Below are positions 5,565 to 24,917 of a DNA stretch of 35,960 nucleotides, one piece after another. Position 1 is the first letter of the stretch. Each line of letters starts with the position of its first letter. The stretch comes from a virus (lineage: Duplodnaviria; Heunggongvirae; Uroviricota; Caudoviricetes): the IMG/VR virus record IMGVR_UViG_2541047842_000004; one strand, given 5' to 3'. The notes below the pieces were generated by a model. That model was not told where the DNA came from, made no database searches, and saw only the letters and a program-made list of their open reading frames with translations. The translations under genes were made by a program, and so were the position numbers.

Positions 5565-7271
<1,707 letters not shown>

Positions 7272-7361: not shown

Positions 7362-7670
7362 TCATCTCGCCGTCAGTTGTTTTGATTTCCGGTAGCCTGC
7401 CGCGTAAATAGCTACGTTTGGCAGGCAAACACTTCCACTGCATTCATCTACTTTCTTGCAGCGAAGGCTTCCGAGTGATATTGCTTTTTCAGAAAGGCTT
7501 AACCGCTTTCTCGGGTCTTCCTGAACAGGTTCCTCACTGTCTGTGCCGAAGATCGAATCGATGATGTTGCAGATGGAATCACGCTCGATGGCCAGCTTTC
7601 TGCGCCGCTCATGACGGCGAGTTTTGGCATTTCCTGCAAATGTTGATTTTCCGTACACGATTACCGTCAT
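7362..7670 (-). CDS. N: Antitermination protein N homologue (P22 gp24-type)
   Basis: 102-aa product from ATG at 7670: MTVIVYGKSTFAGNAKTRRHERRRKLAIERD..., with an arginine-rich N-terminal motif; resembles P22 gene 24 protein as I recall it, not lambda N; sits just downstream of nutL. Confidence 0.8.
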   Translation of the reverse strand: MTVIVYGKSTFAGNAKTRRHERRRKLAIERDSICNIIDSIFGTDSEEPVQEDPRKRLSLSEKAISLGSLRCKKVDECSGSVCLPNVAIYAAGYRKSKQLTAR

Positions 7671-7788
7671 GATGTTTTCCTCATGTGAAATGGCTTTGGT
7701 GGTGATGCGCCAGATGCTGATCTTCTGGTTGCTGTCGTTACTGCTGCAATTCACATCACCCCAAACCCATCTCGTTTGGTATCTGTTC

Positions 7789-7823
7789 GCGCTTTGTCAG
7801 CGCATCATCGAAGTTAAAGAGCC
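7789..7823 (-). promoter_or_regulatory. nutL (boxA-like plus boxB hairpin)
   Basis: Minus strand reads ggctctttaa cttcgatgat GCGCTGACAAAGCGC: a boxA-like element followed by a GCGC/tgacaaa/GCGC hairpin, the P22-type boxB as I recall it. Confidence 0.6.
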
Positions 7824-7870
7824 TGCCAATCTGTTCCGTTTGGCTGCCAGCGTCCTGCTGATGGCGATTA

Positions 7871-7931
7871 TAATGAACCAATAGTTCGATATTATCAAGA
7901 ACTATAAGTACGAATTGTTTGTGGTTCATTA
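7871..7931. promoter_or_regulatory. Nested inverted repeats in the presumed pL/OL region
   Basis: taatgaacca (7871-7880) pairs perfectly with tggttcatta (7922-7931); inside, atagttc (7881-7887) pairs with gaactat (7899-7905); an AGTACGA heptamer at 7907-7913 is shared with the OR region. Confidence 0.3.
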
Positions 7932-8080
7932 ACTTAATGAGATATGTTTTTGATATGTAAAGGAATTTATTTTTGTAAAGATTGAAGATTGGTCAGTAGG
8001 AGAGAAAGAATTGTTTGCTGGCGTGTTAGTTCGTGGGTTAGCACATGTGCGGATGTTAAATAAGGTAGACGATCGTGAGG

Positions 8081-8106
8081 AAAAGAAAAACCGGCGCTGA
8101 GGCCGG
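8081..8106 (-). terminator. Putative rho-independent terminator ending the cI-orf299 transcription unit
   Basis: Minus strand: hairpin CCGGC-ctcagc-GCCGG followed by TTTTTCTTTT, 7 nt downstream of the orf299 stop. Confidence 0.45.
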
Positions 8107-8112
8107 GTATAA

Positions 8113-9012
8113 TTATTTGATTATTTCTTTTATAAAGACTTCTTTCGGTTGGTATTTTTTATCTGATGATTTGAGCTGGTACGTTATTGTTATATCAGCA
8201 CGTACAGAAAATTTACCTGCAAAATCTGATGGGTTTACGTTGGGGCCAAGAACCATATTTACTCTTCGATCTATTAATCCAGGGATAACAGCAGCCCAAC
8301 CTTTCTCTGGATTGTCGAGGTCTAATGCACGGATTTCAACATCAACATCAAAATGATCCTGAGTATATGACTCTGGTGTGAAGACAACTTCAGTTGGGGC
8401 TTTTTTAATGGTTTCAGCGGGAATGGTCACTGTACCACCCCCTGTACCTATGACCATCGTAGATCCTTCGTCTGCCCTAGCTGGGGCAAGCGTCTTAATG
8501 GAACTTTTGGCAAGAGTCTTCTTATTGGTTACCGTGCTTTCTATGATTGCTTGAAGACGGTCAGGTGAAATATTAGCCTCACCGGCACCAATATTGATGA
8601 TTGTATTGTTATTTGCTTCAAAGTGGGAGGTGTTGCTTGGAGCCATAGCCTTAGTTGCTAGAACTAAGCCATATCCAACCAGACCAATAACAACAGCACC
8701 AACGAGAGCGTTTCTCATTTTCCCATTTCCGATCTTTGCATGAGCGCCAGCAAGAAACTTGTCCATTTCTTCTTGGCTACCAAAGAGGAGTTTAATAACA
8801 ATATCTTCATAAAGGCTTCCTGCTTCTAATCGCGCAACATGCACCGATATATCAAGGATATTAGCCCCTGTCAGTTCCTGCAAAACACCTTCTGATTGTT
8901 TTGCGATGGCCTCCCACCCTTGAAGGGAGGTAATCACATCTTTGATGCTTACAGGTTCTTTAGTTGAATAATATATGTTTTCGGTAAAGGTTAAAGATAA
9001 TTCTTGGGACAT
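8113..9012 (-). CDS. Uncharacterised 299-aa predicted single-pass membrane protein in the rexAB slot downstream of cI (candidate exclusion/defence gene)
   Basis: Long ORF with GAGG Shine-Dalgarno about 6 nt upstream of ATG 9012; one strongly hydrophobic segment near residues 100-124 (ALVGAVVIGLVGYGLVLATKAMA); coding region visibly AT-rich compared with flanking cI and structural genes; followed by a terminator; no match to any protein I can recall. Confidence 0.75.
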   Translation of the reverse strand: MSQELSLTFTENIYYSTKEPVSIKDVITSLQGWEAIAKQSEGVLQELTGANILDISVHVARLEAGSLYEDIVIKLLFGSQEEMDKFLAGAHAKIGNGKMRNALVGAVVIGLVGYGLVLATKAMAPSNTSHFEANNNTIINIGAGEANISPDRLQAIIESTVTNKKTLAKSSIKTLAPARADEGSTMVIGTGGGTVTIPAETIKKAPTEVVFTPESYTQDHFDVDVEIRALDLDNPEKGWAAVIPGLIDRRVNMVLGPNVNPSDFAGKFSVRADITITYQLKSSDKKYQPKEVFIKEIIK

Positions 9013-9141
9013 CCGAGCCCTCGCTGTTTCTTTCGATTTGCTGTGTTAAGCTAATATTTTAATATCCATGTTTCTGTTTGCTTGCAGTGTGTTTCTCACC
9101 ACCATCCAAACGTACTGGTTACTAGCTATGTGATGATGAAG

Positions 9142-9849
9142 TCATGAACTTTTCAGCCATTCCCTGGCCTCGATGTCATCTAGGTGGCGAGATTGCTTCA
9201 GAATACCAGCTACATACTCCACCTTTGCTACTTGATGATAAGGCAACGTTATTGGCCTGTGGTCTTGGTTGATGCTTGTAAATTGGTATTCTCCGTCTCT
9301 GTCATAGCCAAGAACCTTGATCATGTTGTGCCCTTCAATGGTTCTGACAAACACCTCATCACCTGGGAATACTTTGGTGTTAGGCTCAATGAGTACATAT
9401 TCTCCTGATTTTATTCTGGGCCACATGCTGTCTCCTTTTACACGAAGACCAAAGGCATCTGGATCATCGCTATAAATCTTGAGCCACCCATCGCGCTCTT
9501 CGGTCATCTCGATGGCACCATCAACACCAAGAATTGCCTCACCAACCACGCGCACTAACCCTTTTTTTAATTTGCCAACAATTGAAAAAGTATCTTCATC
9601 ATTCGCTCCATTTAACGAAGTGCCGTGCTGAAGCCAAACAACATCAACGTTTAGAAATTTCGCAAGCGCATTCATTTTTTCCTGGCGTGGTAAAGACTCA
9701 GCATTAAACCATTTGCTAACGCCTTTGGACGAAAGAGAAAGGGCACGGGCTATGGCCATTCCCCTACCATGTTCATCAAGACCAGCTTCTTTACAGGCTT
9801 GCGCTAGCCGCTGGGCGAATTCTTTGCGCACTTTTTCATTCTGAACCAT
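9142..9849 (-). CDS. cI: CI-type prophage repressor (N-terminal HTH plus C-terminal S24 LexA-like autopeptidase domain)
   Basis: 235-aa protein; C-terminal domain contains the GDSM serine motif and a downstream lysine (MIKVL) typical of LexA/CI autocleavage domains; divergently oriented to cro; sequence differs from lambda CI. Confidence 0.9.
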   Translation of the reverse strand: MVQNEKVRKEFAQRLAQACKEAGLDEHGRGMAIARALSLSSKGVSKWFNAESLPRQEKMNALAKFLNVDVVWLQHGTSLNGANDEDTFSIVGKLKKGLVRVVGEAILGVDGAIEMTEERDGWLKIYSDDPDAFGLRVKGDSMWPRIKSGEYVLIEPNTKVFPGDEVFVRTIEGHNMIKVLGYDRDGEYQFTSINQDHRPITLPYHQVAKVEYVAGILKQSRHLDDIEAREWLKSS

Positions 9850-9927
9850 GAGTACGATACTAAAGCACTTGCAAAAACTTTCAGTTCAACCATAATGCGT
9901 ACTGAAAGTACGAAAAAGGACATTCCT
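9850..9927. promoter_or_regulatory. OR operator / pRM-pR divergent promoter region between cI and cro
   Basis: 78-bp cI-cro spacer containing AGTACGA heptamers (9851-9857, 9907-9913) and an inverted repeat actttcagt (9877-9885) / actgaaagt (9901-9909). Confidence 0.5.
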
Positions 9928-10155
9928 ATGCAAAATCTTGATGAGCCGATTAAAGGTGTCGGCATCCCTGAAGTTGCGAAGGCTTGTGGAGTTAGCGAAA
10001 GGGCTGTCTATAAGTGGCTCAAAAACGGCTTCCTCCCTAAGACTGAGTTTTTTGGGAAAACGAAATACGCATCAAAAATCGAAGAGATTTCTGGTGGCAA
10101 ATATCAAGCAAGCGAAATGCTTGAAATAAGCAAAAAGAACCTTCTGGCAGCATAA
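9928..10155 (+). CDS. cro: Cro-like repressor (HTH)
   Basis: 75-aa product from ATG 9928 with AAGGA Shine-Dalgarno 7 nt upstream; HTH-like segment GIPEVAKACGVSERAVYKWLKNG. The longer track ORF from 9895 would start inside the operator region, so the shorter start is preferred. Confidence 0.8.
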   Translation: MQNLDEPIKGVGIPEVAKACGVSERAVYKWLKNGFLPKTEFFGKTKYASKIEEISGGKYQASEMLEISKKNLLAA

Positions 10156-10162
10156 GTAACAC

Positions 10163-10197
10163 CGCTCTTTATCAATCTGCACCGCCGACAACGCGGT
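10163..10197 (+). promoter_or_regulatory. nutR (boxA plus boxB hairpin)
   Basis: cgctcttta (10163-10171) followed by hairpin ACCGC-cgacaa-CGCGGT (10181-10197), just downstream of cro. Confidence 0.6.
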
Positions 10198-10261
10198 AAC
10201 TAATTAAGAACTCATCGAAAGATGCGTATTAGTGATTATTTACCTATGGAAATAGTAAGAA

Positions 10262-10561
10262 ATGGAACAAACAAATTACAGCAAACTATCACAGCGCGAC
10301 GTTGATCGCGCAGAAACAGATTTACTTATCAACCTGTCAACGCTTACTCAGCGCGGTCTGGCAAAGATGATTGGCTGTCATGAATCGAAGATAAGCAGAA
10401 CAGACTGGAGGTTTATAGCTTCGGTCTTGTGTGCTTTTGGCATGGCATCAGACATCAGTCCGATTAGCAGAGCTTTTAAGTATGCGCTTGATGAAATCAC
10501 CAATAAAAAACGCCCGGTGTGCAAGACCGAGCGTTCTGAACAAATCCAGATGGAGTTCTGA
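10262..10561 (+). CDS. cII: CII-like transcriptional activator (chimeric: divergent N-terminus, lambda-identical C-terminus)
   Basis: 99-aa protein ending ...TNKKRPVCKTERSEQIQMEF, matching the lambda CII C-terminus (…TNKKRPAATERSEQIQMEF); same 33-bp spacing to O as in lambda. Confidence 0.85.
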   Translation: MEQTNYSKLSQRDVDRAETDLLINLSTLTQRGLAKMIGCHESKISRTDWRFIASVLCAFGMASDISPISRAFKYALDEITNKKRPVCKTERSEQIQMEF

Positions 10562-20690: not shown

Positions 20691-21210
20691 ATGGAAGTCA
20701 ACAAAAAGCAGCTGGCTGACATTTTCGGTGCGAGTATCCGTACCATTCAGAACTGGCAGGAACAGGGAATGCCCGTTCTGCGAGGCGGTGGCAAGGGTAA
20801 TGAGGTGCTTTATGACTCTGCCGCCGTCATAAAATGGTATGCCGAAAGGGATTCTGAAATTGAGAACGAAAAGCTGCGCCGGGAGGTTGAAGAACTGCGG
20901 CAGGCCAGCGAGGCAGATCTCCAGCCAGGAACTATTGAGTACGAACGCCATCGACTTACGCGTGCGCAGGCCGACGCACAGGAACTGAAGAATGCCAGAG
21001 ACTCCGCTGAAGTGGTGGAAACCGCATTCTGTACTTTCGTGTTGTCGCGGATCGCAGGTGAAATTGCCAGTATTCTCGACGGGCTCCCCCTGTCGGTGCA
21101 GCGGCGTTTTCCGGAACTGGAAAACCGACATGTTGATTTCCTGAAACGGGATATCATCAAAGCCATGAACAAAGCAGCCGCGCTGGATGAACTGATACCG
21201 GGGTTGCTGA

Positions 21211-21236
<26 letters not shown>
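20691..21236 (+). CDS. nu1: Terminase small subunit Nu1
   Basis: 181-aa product MEVNKKQLADIFGASIRTIQNWQEQGMPVLRGGGKGNEVLYDSAAVIKWYAERD... matches lambda Nu1. Confidence 0.97.

Positions 21237-24917
<3,681 letters not shown>

What the first reader, a model, noticed from the sequence alone, without database searches (positions are those of the whole stretch)
9850..9927. OR region: recurring AGTACGA heptamer and a 9-bp inverted repeat as candidate operator elements
Seen in sequence: the 78-bp cI-cro spacer contains AGTACGA twice (9851-9857 and 9907-9913) and an inverted repeat actttcagt / actgaaagt (9877-9885 / 9901-9909). The same AGTACGA heptamer occurs once in the presumed OL region (7907-7913). 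Inference: these are candidate repressor half-sites for this non-lambda CI/Cro pair, which would define its immunity specificity. The longest annotated cro ORF (from 9895) would begin inside these elements, supporting the shorter start at 9928.
Basis: inference. Interest (0 to 1): 0.4.

Follow-up and report, generated by a model that had tools for sequence, protein, structure and literature searches.

The report
Phage 933W-type repressor operators

Summary
The elements should be read differently, though, and they are already known. The cI-cro region is the immunity region of Shiga-toxin phage 933W: CI is 99% identical with an identical DNA-binding domain, and Cro is 100% identical. Here it sits in a lambda-like prophage.

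GenBank annotations of 933W, and the published description of its five operators, map onto the window as 15-bp dyads of form N-G-W-A-C-Y-NNN-R-G-T-W-C-N:
- OR3 at 9842-9856
- OR2 at 9874-9888
- OR1 at 9898-9912
- OL1 at 7874-7888
- OL2 at 7898-7912

AGTACGA is the right half-site, plus one flanking A, of OR3, OR1 and OL2. The 9-bp inverted repeat is the shared central 9 bp of OR2 and OR1, which are two separate sites and not one element. The dyad pattern occurs four times in 36 kb, all in OL/OR, against 0.3 expected.

In 83 related loci and a Salmonella phage at 81% identity, positions 2, 4 and 5 of each half-site never change. Position 3 changes only A<->T, in Salmonella phage SF6, so the literal heptamer is not conserved.

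The ATG at 9895 comes from a polymorphism beside the pR -10 hexamer. It is absent from 933W and out of frame in some relatives, so cro starts at 9928.

Verdict: already known, low interest.

The parts
9842..9856 (.). OR3, TGAACCATGAGTACG. It overlaps the cI start codon (9847-9849) and the expected pRM start.
   Evidence: Identical in sequence and position to 'operator oR3' of AF125520 and 'OR3 repressor binding site' of GQ499361. Matches the dyad pattern. PWM rank 4 of about 36,000 positions.
9874..9888 (.). OR2, AAAACTTTCAGTTCA. It overlaps the last base of the pR -35 hexamer and the pR spacer, and contains the left arm of the 9-bp inverted repeat (9877-9885). This is the site with A instead of G at position 2, inside an A4 tract.
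   Evidence: Identical to the annotated oR2 of 933W. The A-tract and non-G position 2 match the description of OR2 in PMC3317979. PWM rank 5. Invariant in 83 related loci and in Salmonella phage SF6.
9898..9912 (.). OR1, CGTACTGAAAGTACG, the highest-affinity site in 933W. It starts 2 bp after the pR -10 hexamer and covers the expected pR start. It contains the right arm of the inverted repeat (9901-9909) and most of the second AGTACGA (9907-9913).
   Evidence: Identical to the annotated oR1 of 933W. It differs from the published consensus at positions 3, 7' and 3', as PMC3317979 states for OR1.
7874..7888 (.). OL1, TGAACCAATAGTTCG. It lies between the pL -35 hexamer and the -10 hexamer and overlaps the -10 by 2 bp.
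   Evidence: Identical to the 'OL1 repressor binding site' of GQ499361. Top PWM score in the window.
7898..7912 (.). OL2, AGAACTATAAGTACG. It touches the pL -35 hexamer, and the third AGTACGA (7907-7913) is its right half-site plus one flanking base. It differs from 933W OL2 (AGAACTATTGGTACG) at positions 7' and 6'.
   Evidence: Homologous to the 'OL2 repressor binding site' of GQ499361. This AAGTACG allele occurs in 17 of the 54 related loci in which OL was captured. No third OL site was found; the next best PWM score nearby is 5.75.
9869..9896 (+). pR promoter: -35 TTGCAA (9869-9874), 16-bp spacer, -10 CATAAT (9891-9896). The expected start is about 9903, inside OR1.
   Evidence: Consensus scan. 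Same position as the putative pR of AF125520. The start site is inferred, not mapped here.
9857..9884 (-). Putative pRM: -35 CTGAAA (9884-9879), -10 TAGTAT (9862-9857). This gives a leaderless or nearly leaderless cI message.
   Evidence: Position transferred from the 'pM; putative maintenance promoter' annotation of AF125520. The sequence is identical. The consensus scan did not pick it up, as expected for a weak, activated promoter.
7870..7898 (-). pL promoter: -35 TTGATA (7898-7893), 17-bp spacer, -10 CATTAT (7875-7870). It drives the N gene at 7362-7754(-).
   Evidence: Consensus scan. N was identified by Pfam N_peptide, E 1e-40.
9142..9849 (-). cI repressor, 235 aa, with an HTH_3 domain and a Peptidase_S24 domain.
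   Evidence: 99% identical to 933W CI. The three differences are at residues 88, 90 and 171, all outside residues 1-75. The specificity residues S41, K42, K46 and E51 are present.
9928..10155 (+). cro, 75 aa, with Shine-Dalgarno AAGGA at 9916-9920.
   Evidence: 100% identical to 933W Cro, which is annotated from the equivalent ATG.

Best explanation
The region is the right operator/promoter (OR) of a lambdoid prophage with phage 933W immunity. Three 15-bp, rotationally symmetric binding sites for the CI repressor dimer (and presumably also for Cro) lie between the divergent cI and cro genes: OR3 at 9842-9856, OR2 at 9874-9888 and OR1 at 9898-9912. Two more, OL1 at 7874-7888 and OL2 at 7898-7912, cover pL.

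Each half-site is N-G-(A/T)-A-C-(T/C)-N around a central A/T pair. AGTACGA is the right half-site of OR3, OR1 and OL2. The 9-bp inverted repeat is the common core of OR2 and OR1.

Mechanism, taken from the published work on 933W, whose CI DNA-binding domain, Cro and OR sites are identical:
- CI bound at OR1 and OR2 blocks pR, whose -35, spacer and start they overlap.
- CI at OR2 activates pRM.
- CI at OR3 sits on the cI start and shuts pRM.
- CI at OL1 and OL2 blocks pL.
- Unlike lambda, binding is non-cooperative, so occupancy follows intrinsic affinity (OR1 > OR2 > OR3, about 1 : 14 : 26).
- OR3 is partly filled in a lysogen. This keeps repressor low and the prophage easy to induce.

Shown here: the identity of proteins and sites, their statistics and their conservation pattern. 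Transferred from the literature: binding, affinities and regulatory effects. Inferred: the transcription start points.
For: The cI-cro segment is 97.5% identical to phage 933W (AF125520) and is labelled '933W Cro' in many records. CI is 99% identical with residues 1-87 identical, and Cro is 100% identical.

The oR1/oR2/oR3 annotations of AF125520 and the OR/OL annotations of GQ499361 fall on identical sequence in the window.

The register reproduces every textual property of the five sites given in PMC3317979:
- 15 bp and symmetric
- G at position 2, except one OR2 half-site inside a 4-bp A-tract
- A and C invariant at positions 4 and 5
- position 6 is T in 7 and C in 3 of the 10 half-sites (searches list them)
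- central A/T pair
- OR1 deviates from the consensus at positions 3, 7' and 3'

The dyad pattern gives 4 hits, all in OL/OR, against 0.30 expected. A PWM built from the 933W sites ranks the five window sites 1-5 of about 36,000 positions.

Phylogenetic footprint: in 83 loci with the same CI N-terminal domain, OR3, OR2 and positions 2-5/2'-5' of every site are invariant. Changes fall at position 1, in the central positions 6-8-6', and in the flanks and cro leader. In Salmonella phage SF6 (81% identity) the operators change only at positions 1/1' and by A<->T at 3/3', while the spacers between sites accumulate substitutions.

Promoter hexamers for pR and pL sit against the sites as in other lambdoid phages. 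Relative affinities, lack of cooperativity, absence of OL3 and OR3-mediated pRM repression come from PMC3317979, PMC5977221 and PMC4848623.
Against: No binding experiment exists for this exact allele. It differs from 933W at 9897 (A->G, one base outside OR1), at 9921 in the cro leader, at OL2 positions 7' and 6', and at three CI residues outside the DNA-binding domain.

The primary mapping papers (Koudelka 2004, Tyler 2004, Bullwinkle 2011) are not held. Site coordinates therefore rest on GenBank annotations plus the text of a later paper from the same laboratory.

OR2 alone (PWM score 12.83) is no better than the best chance hit in shuffled sequence, where the mean maximum is 12.98. Its assignment relies on homology and position.

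With the putative pRM hexamers, OR2 lies on the -35 hexamer rather than upstream of it, an odd position for an activator site. I could not resolve this.
Confidence: 0.95

Rival explanations
1. The 9-bp inverted repeat (9877-9885 / 9901-9909) works as one unit: an RNA hairpin or DNA cruciform that attenuates or regulates cro expression, or a single long palindromic operator.
For: The arms pair perfectly. Folded as RNA, 9868-9918 gives -9.4 kcal/mol with z = -2.24, and 8 of 200 shuffles fold as well.
Against: The left arm lies between the pR -35 and -10 hexamers, upstream of the expected pR start at about 9903, so it is not in the cro message. Neither arm is in the pRM message. Each arm is the centre of its own 15-bp dyad, identical to an annotated and published 933W operator. 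Six of the nine bases (ACT...AGT) are consensus operator positions, so only the central triplet adds to the match. A 15-nt loop and a modest z-score are weak.
Confidence: 0.02
2. The heptamer recurrence is chance and has no function.
For: Six copies in the window is only modestly above the expectation of 1.98, and 3 of 100 shuffles reach 6. Three copies lie in coding DNA with no role.
Against: Three of the six copies fall in 0.4% of the window (P about 1.4e-6). Each is the right half of a 15-bp dyad identical or homologous to a known 933W operator.
Confidence: 0.01
3. The sites are real, but in this allele the switch is tuned differently from 933W. OL2 has a right half-site identical to that of OR1. 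G replaces A one base from OR1, next to the pR -10. The CI linker is altered at residues 88 and 90. Affinities, pR/pL strength or inducibility may therefore differ, so published 933W numbers may not transfer.
For: Sequence differences are shown. PMC3317979 reports that positions 6 and 7' measurably change affinity: C versus T at position 6 by more than 2.5-fold, and A at 7' is favourable. Both alleles are common, with G at 9897 in about 50 and A in 33 of 83 loci.
Against: All specificity positions, the CI DNA-binding domain and all three OR sites are identical. The expected effects are a few-fold at one OL site. This refines the main explanation and does not replace it.
Confidence: 0.2

Closest known systems
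Phage 933W OR/OL operators and CI repressor (GenBank AF125520; Koudelka et al. 2004; Tyler et al. 2004; Bullwinkle et al. 2012, PMC3317979)
   Same: OR1, OR2, OR3 and OL1 are identical base for base and in spacing. The CI DNA-binding domain and Cro are identical in amino-acid sequence. OL has two sites and OR three. The pR, pRM and pL hexamers are the same.
   Different: OL2 is AGAACTATAAGTACG instead of AGAACTATTGGTACG. There is an A->G change at 9897 next to OR1 and a T->C change at 9921. CI carries L88F, F90I and V171I. The genes between cI and OL are replaced, with one 299-aa ORF of unknown function in place of stk, L0083 and L0084. The rest of the phage is lambda-like, not Stx-converting.
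Phage lambda OR (OR1-OR2-OR3 with CI and Cro)
   Same: Divergent cI and cro with three dyad operators overlapping pR and pRM. The repressor has HTH and S24 autopeptidase domains. The predicted cI message is leaderless. OL operators cover pL upstream of N.
   Different: Sites are 15 bp, not 17 bp, with an unrelated sequence. There are two OL sites, not three. Published work reports no cooperative binding and no OL-OR loop effect on pRM (PMC3317979, PMC5977221). The OR2-OR3 centre distance is 32 bp, against 23 bp in lambda (from my own knowledge).
Salmonella Lederbergvirus phages SF6 and SI5 (MK972689, MK972695)
   Same: Homologous cI-cro region at about 81% nucleotide identity, with the same five operators in the same places.
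   Different: Operators differ at positions 1/1' and by A<->T at 3/3'. None of their five operators contains the literal AGTACGA heptamer.

Membership tests
933W immunity type (imm933W) operator-repressor system | CI repressor with the 933W DNA-binding domain, including the specificity residues S41, K42, K46 and E51 | tested here: met
   CI residues 1-87 are identical to 933W CI and all four residues are present. The residues are named in PMC3317979.
933W immunity type (imm933W) operator-repressor system | 15-bp rotationally symmetric operators with G2, A/T3, A4, C5, T/C6 and a central A/T pair | tested here: met
   All five window sites fit, with OR2 carrying the published exception at position 2. 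The description is in PMC3317979.
933W immunity type (imm933W) operator-repressor system | Three sites in OR between divergent cI and cro, at the positions annotated in 933W | tested here: met
   OR3, OR2 and OR1 are identical in sequence and spacing to AF125520 and GQ499361.
933W immunity type (imm933W) operator-repressor system | Only two sites in OL (no OL3) | tested here: met
   The PWM scan of 7800-8110 finds OL1 and OL2 (18.4 and 17.2) and nothing else above 5.75. The absence of OL3 in 933W is stated in PMC5977221.
933W immunity type (imm933W) operator-repressor system | Cognate Cro of the 933W type | tested here: met
   Cro is 100% identical over 75 aa.
933W immunity type (imm933W) operator-repressor system | Repressor actually binds these sites, non-cooperatively, and confers immunity to 933W-immunity phages | not testable with these tools
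   Needs EMSA or footprinting and superinfection tests. Published for 933W itself (PMC3317979, PMC5977221).
LexA/CI-type S24 autocleaving repressors | N-terminal HTH domain plus C-terminal Peptidase_S24 domain | tested here: met
   Pfam HTH_3 (E 1.2e-5, above cutoff) and Peptidase_S24 (E 3.5e-16).
Lambda immunity (imm-lambda) | 17-bp operators of the lambda consensus, bound by lambda CI | tested here: not met
   Sites are 15 bp with an unrelated sequence, and the CI is the 933W type. The lambda-like part of this prophage lies outside the immunity region, for example the lambda-type Nu1 at 20691-21236.

The most novel reading that the evidence does not exclude
The window's allele might give a measurably different lysis-lysogeny set point from 933W. 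Its distinguishing features are an OL2 whose right half-site is converted to the OR1 type, G at 9897 between the pR -10 and OR1, and CI linker changes L88F and F90I. The variable central operator positions (6-8-6') seen across 83 loci could then be the knobs by which natural imm933W prophages tune spontaneous induction.
Probability: 0.15. Interest if true: 0.25.

Novelty: already known. Interest (0 to 1): 0.07.

Why it matters
The result fixes the annotation. This prophage has 933W immunity, so it should be immune to, and excluded by, other imm933W phages, including many Stx-converting phages. Its operators, promoters and the cro start can be annotated to the base.

It also shows that 933W-type immunity circulates widely outside Stx phages. 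The exact allele is in 150 of 5,426 complete E. coli genomes. Nothing here changes what is known about the switch.

Tried and rejected
1. I first tried to parse the region by eye with CGTACT...AGTACG as the only half-site type. That failed to place OR3 and put OR1 two bases off. The tool coordinates and the GenBank annotations corrected this.

2. RNA hairpin reading of the 9-bp inverted repeat. It folds at -9.4 kcal/mol with z = -2.24, but the left arm is upstream of the expected pR start, so I rejected it.

3. The terminator-like hit at 9912-9898(-) is just the OR1 palindrome. It has no T-run of note, so I rejected it.

4. I checked the three AGTACGA copies outside OL/OR as possible extra operators.
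- 3175(-) and 11566 have no left half-site.
- 20938 is part of GAACTATTGAGTAC inside Nu1. It has 6 instead of 5 bases between GAAC and GTAC and lies in conserved coding sequence, so I rejected it as chance.

5. A search for an OL3 site found none.

6. I tried to read the primary mapping papers (PMC524892, PMC524894, PMC3133280). They are not held.

7. A PADLOC search of the 299-aa neighbour gave no hit.

Full report
**Observation.**
- AGTACGA is at 9851-9857 and 9907-9913 in the cI-cro spacer, and at 7907-7913 upstream of N.
- ACTTTCAGT (9877-9885) and ACTGAAAGT (9901-9909) form a perfect 9-bp inverted repeat.
- cI (9142-9849, minus strand) and cro (ATG at 9928) are 78 bp apart.

Frequency alone is therefore unremarkable. 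Three of the six copies, however, lie in 149 bp of control DNA, with binomial P about 1.4e-6.

**Identity of the region.** A megablast of 7700-10300 finds eleven lambda-like coliphages at 100% identity, for example Lambda_2E9 and 1H12. The cI-cro part is also in about 130 Stx-converting and related phages at 95-99% identity, with Cro annotated as that of 'bacteriophage BP-933W'.
- Against phage 933W itself (AF125520), the cI-cro segment is 97.5% identical.
- CI is 99% identical. The only differences are at residues 88, 90 and 171, so residues 1-87, which include the DNA-binding domain, are identical.
- Cro is 100% identical.
- Pfam gives HTH_3 plus Peptidase_S24 for CI, an HTH for Cro, N_peptide for the ORF at 7362-7754(-), and Phage_CII for 10262-10561.
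- The exact allele is in 150 of 5,426 complete E. coli genomes.

**The operators.** GenBank AF125520 annotates oR3, oR2 and oR1, and GQ499361 annotates OR1-3 and OL1-2 as repressor binding sites. Transferred through the alignments, these become:

| Site | Window coordinates | Sequence |
|---|---|---|
| OR3 | 9842-9856 | TGAACCATGAGTACG |
| OR2 | 9874-9888 | AAAACTTTCAGTTCA |
| OR1 | 9898-9912 | CGTACTGAAAGTACG |
| OL1 | 7874-7888 | TGAACCAATAGTTCG |
| OL2 | 7898-7912 | AGAACTATAAGTACG |

The three OR sites and OL1 are identical to those of 933W. OL2 differs at two central positions, since 933W has AGAACTATTGGTACG.

I could not read the papers that first mapped the sites. PMC3317979, from the same laboratory, describes the five natural sites in words:
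- 15 bp, rotationally symmetric about a central pair
- position 1 poorly conserved
- position 2 is G everywhere except one OR2 half-site, where it is part of a 4-bp A-tract
- consensus A at position 3, with T in OR1
- positions 4 and 5 invariant A and C
- position 6 is T in 7 of 10 half-sites and C in 3
- position 8 is an A/T pair
- OR1 differs from the consensus at positions 3, 7' and 3'

The ten half-sites in my register are CGTACTG, CGTACTT, AAAACTT, TGAACTG, TGAACCA, CGTACTC, TGAACCA, CGAACTA, AGAACTA and CGTACCA. They meet every one of these statements, so the register is right.

AGTACGA is positions 6' to 1' of the right half-site, plus one flanking A, in OR3, OR1 and OL2. The 9-bp inverted repeat is positions 4 to 4' of OR2 and of OR1. 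Six of its nine bases (ACT...AGT) are consensus operator bases. The central triplets, TTC and GAA, happen to be reverse complements, so the two operators share a core in opposite orientation.

Its left half-site lies in the first codons of cI.

**Statistics on the functional pattern.**
- GWACYNNNRGTWC occurs 4 times in 35,960 bp, at OL1, OL2, OR3 and OR1. The expectation is 0.30, and 0 of 100 shuffles reach 4.
- A PWM built from the 933W sites ranks the five window sites first to fifth (18.4, 17.2, 16.6, 15.9 and 12.8).
- OR2's score on its own is no higher than the best hit in shuffled sequence.
- There is no third OL site; the next best score nearby is 5.75.

**Comparative evidence.** In 83 loci carrying the same CI N-terminal domain, most of them from IMG/VR, OR3, OR2 and the OR3-OR2 spacer are invariant.

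Variation falls at the following places:
- 9890, just before the pR -10
- 9897, which is A in 33 loci and G in about 50
- position 1 or position 7 of OR1 in a few loci
- the cro leader, which includes 1-nt indels
- central positions 6-8-6' of OL1 and OL2

Positions 2-5 and 2'-5' never change in these loci. The AAGTACG form of OL2 is present in 17 of the 54 loci where OL was captured, and the rest have GGTACG.

In Salmonella phage SF6 (81% identity) the sites read as follows:

| Site | SF6 sequence |
|---|---|
| OR3 | TGAACCATGAGTTCG |
| OR2 | unchanged |
| OR1 | TGTACTGAAAGTACA |
| OL1 | TGAACCAATAGTACG |
| OL2 | AGAACTATTGGTACA |

These changes fall only at position 1/1' and as A<->T at 3/3', the positions the repressor is reported to tolerate. 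The inter-operator spacers meanwhile pick up substitutions. The literal heptamer is thus an accident of this allele. The 15-bp dyad is what is conserved.

**Promoters and the cro start.** The consensus scan finds two promoters, at the positions annotated in 933W:
- pR: TTGCAA at 9869-9874, a 16-bp spacer, then CATAAT at 9891-9896.
- pL: TTGATA at 7898-7893, a 17-bp spacer, then CATTAT at 7875-7870.

OR1 begins 2 bp after the pR -10 and covers the expected start near 9903. OR2 covers the pR spacer and the edge of the -35. OL1 and OL2 bracket the pL -35 to -10 region.

The ATG at 9895-9897 overlaps the last two bases of the pR -10 hexamer. Three lines of evidence argue against it as the cro start:
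- It is created by the A/G polymorphism at 9897; 933W has ATA.
- It lies upstream of the expected pR start.
- It is shifted out of frame with cro by 1-nt indels in SF6 and in several IMG/VR loci.

The ATG at 9928 has AAGGA 7 nt upstream and is the annotated 933W start.

**Mechanism.** The regulatory behaviour is taken from the 933W literature.
- CI dimers bind OR1, OR2 and OR3 without cooperativity. Relative dissociation constants in intact OR are 1 : 13.6 : 26.4.
- There is no OL3, and no role for an OL-OR loop in pRM control.
- OR1 and OR2 occupancy represses pR, OR2 occupancy activates pRM, and OR3 occupancy represses pRM.
- Because OR2 and OR3 fill at similar concentrations, lysogens hold few repressor molecules (34 per cell is reported) and induce readily (PMC3317979, PMC5977221, PMC4848623).

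These properties should carry over, because the DNA-binding domain, Cro and all OR sites are identical. I have not shown binding for this allele.

**An unresolved point.** With the putative pRM hexamers of AF125520 (-35 CTGAAA at 9884-9879, -10 TAGTAT at 9862-9857, start at the cI AUG), OR2 sits on the -35 hexamer, centred at about -32. It does not sit just upstream of it as in lambda. The OR2-OR3 centre distance is 32 bp, against 24 bp for OR1-OR2 and OL1-OL2. The primary mapping data would settle whether the annotated hexamers are the ones used.

**Rivals.**
- An RNA hairpin from the inverted repeat folds at -9.4 kcal/mol (z = -2.24). Its left arm is upstream of the pR start and is part of an established operator, so I rejected it.
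- Pure chance is excluded by the clustering and by homology to the known sites.

**Verdict.** The feature is the already characterised 933W operator set, carried in a lambda-like prophage. Interest is low.

Noticed in passing
window 8113-9012 (-), with terminator-like hairpin at 8106-8091 (-): A 299-aa ORF lies directly downstream of cI on the same strand, in the slot held by rexAB in lambda and by stk, L0083 and L0084 in 933W. It matches phrog_4506 (unknown function, E 1e-170). It has no significant Pfam hit and no PADLOC hit, and contains a hydrophobic stretch around residues 100-125. It may be a lysogen-expressed moron or exclusion gene. Salmonella phage SF6 has a hypothetical gene of similar size in the same slot.
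   Followed up: partly
window 6077-7271: A complete IS5 element (1195 bp, terminal inverted repeats at 6077-6092 and 7256-7271, transposase ORF at 6109-7125) is inserted about 90 bp downstream of the N gene in the pL operon. It probably makes this prophage defective for, or polar on, the leftward early genes. The 100%-identical free phages (1H12, Lambda_2E9) were matched only over 7700-10300.
   Followed up: partly
window 9857-9888: With the putative pRM annotated in 933W, OR2 lies on the pRM -35 hexamer (centre about -32) instead of upstream of it. OR2 and OR3 are 32 bp apart centre to centre, against 24 bp for OR1-OR2. This is an odd geometry for an activating site. I could not check it because the mapping papers are not held.
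   Followed up: partly
window 20930-20943: There is an operator look-alike, GAACTATTGAGTAC, inside the lambda-type Nu1 (small terminase) gene. It resembles 933W OL2 with one extra base between the half-sites. It is probably chance, because the spacing is wrong for a 15-bp site.
   Followed up: partly
window 23782-23796: TGAACTGTTCGTTCA scores 12.4 with the 933W operator PWM, almost as high as OR2, and lies far from OL/OR. That score is within the range of shuffled sequence, and I did not examine it further.
   Followed up: no
window 9142-9569 (C-terminal part of cI): The 3' 428 nt of cI, encoding its C-terminal domain, is 96% identical to the cI of phages with other immunities (H-19B, mEp506, Stx1a phages), while the 5' part is not. 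This shows a recombination joint inside cI between the DNA-binding and oligomerisation/cleavage domains.
   Followed up: no
window 7362-7754 (-): The N antiterminator carries the arginine-rich motif GNAKTRRHERRRKLAIERD. I recognise this as P22-type from my own knowledge and did not test it here. The 933W-type immunity region is therefore flanked by an N/nut module of another phage type, a further sign of mosaicism.
   Followed up: no
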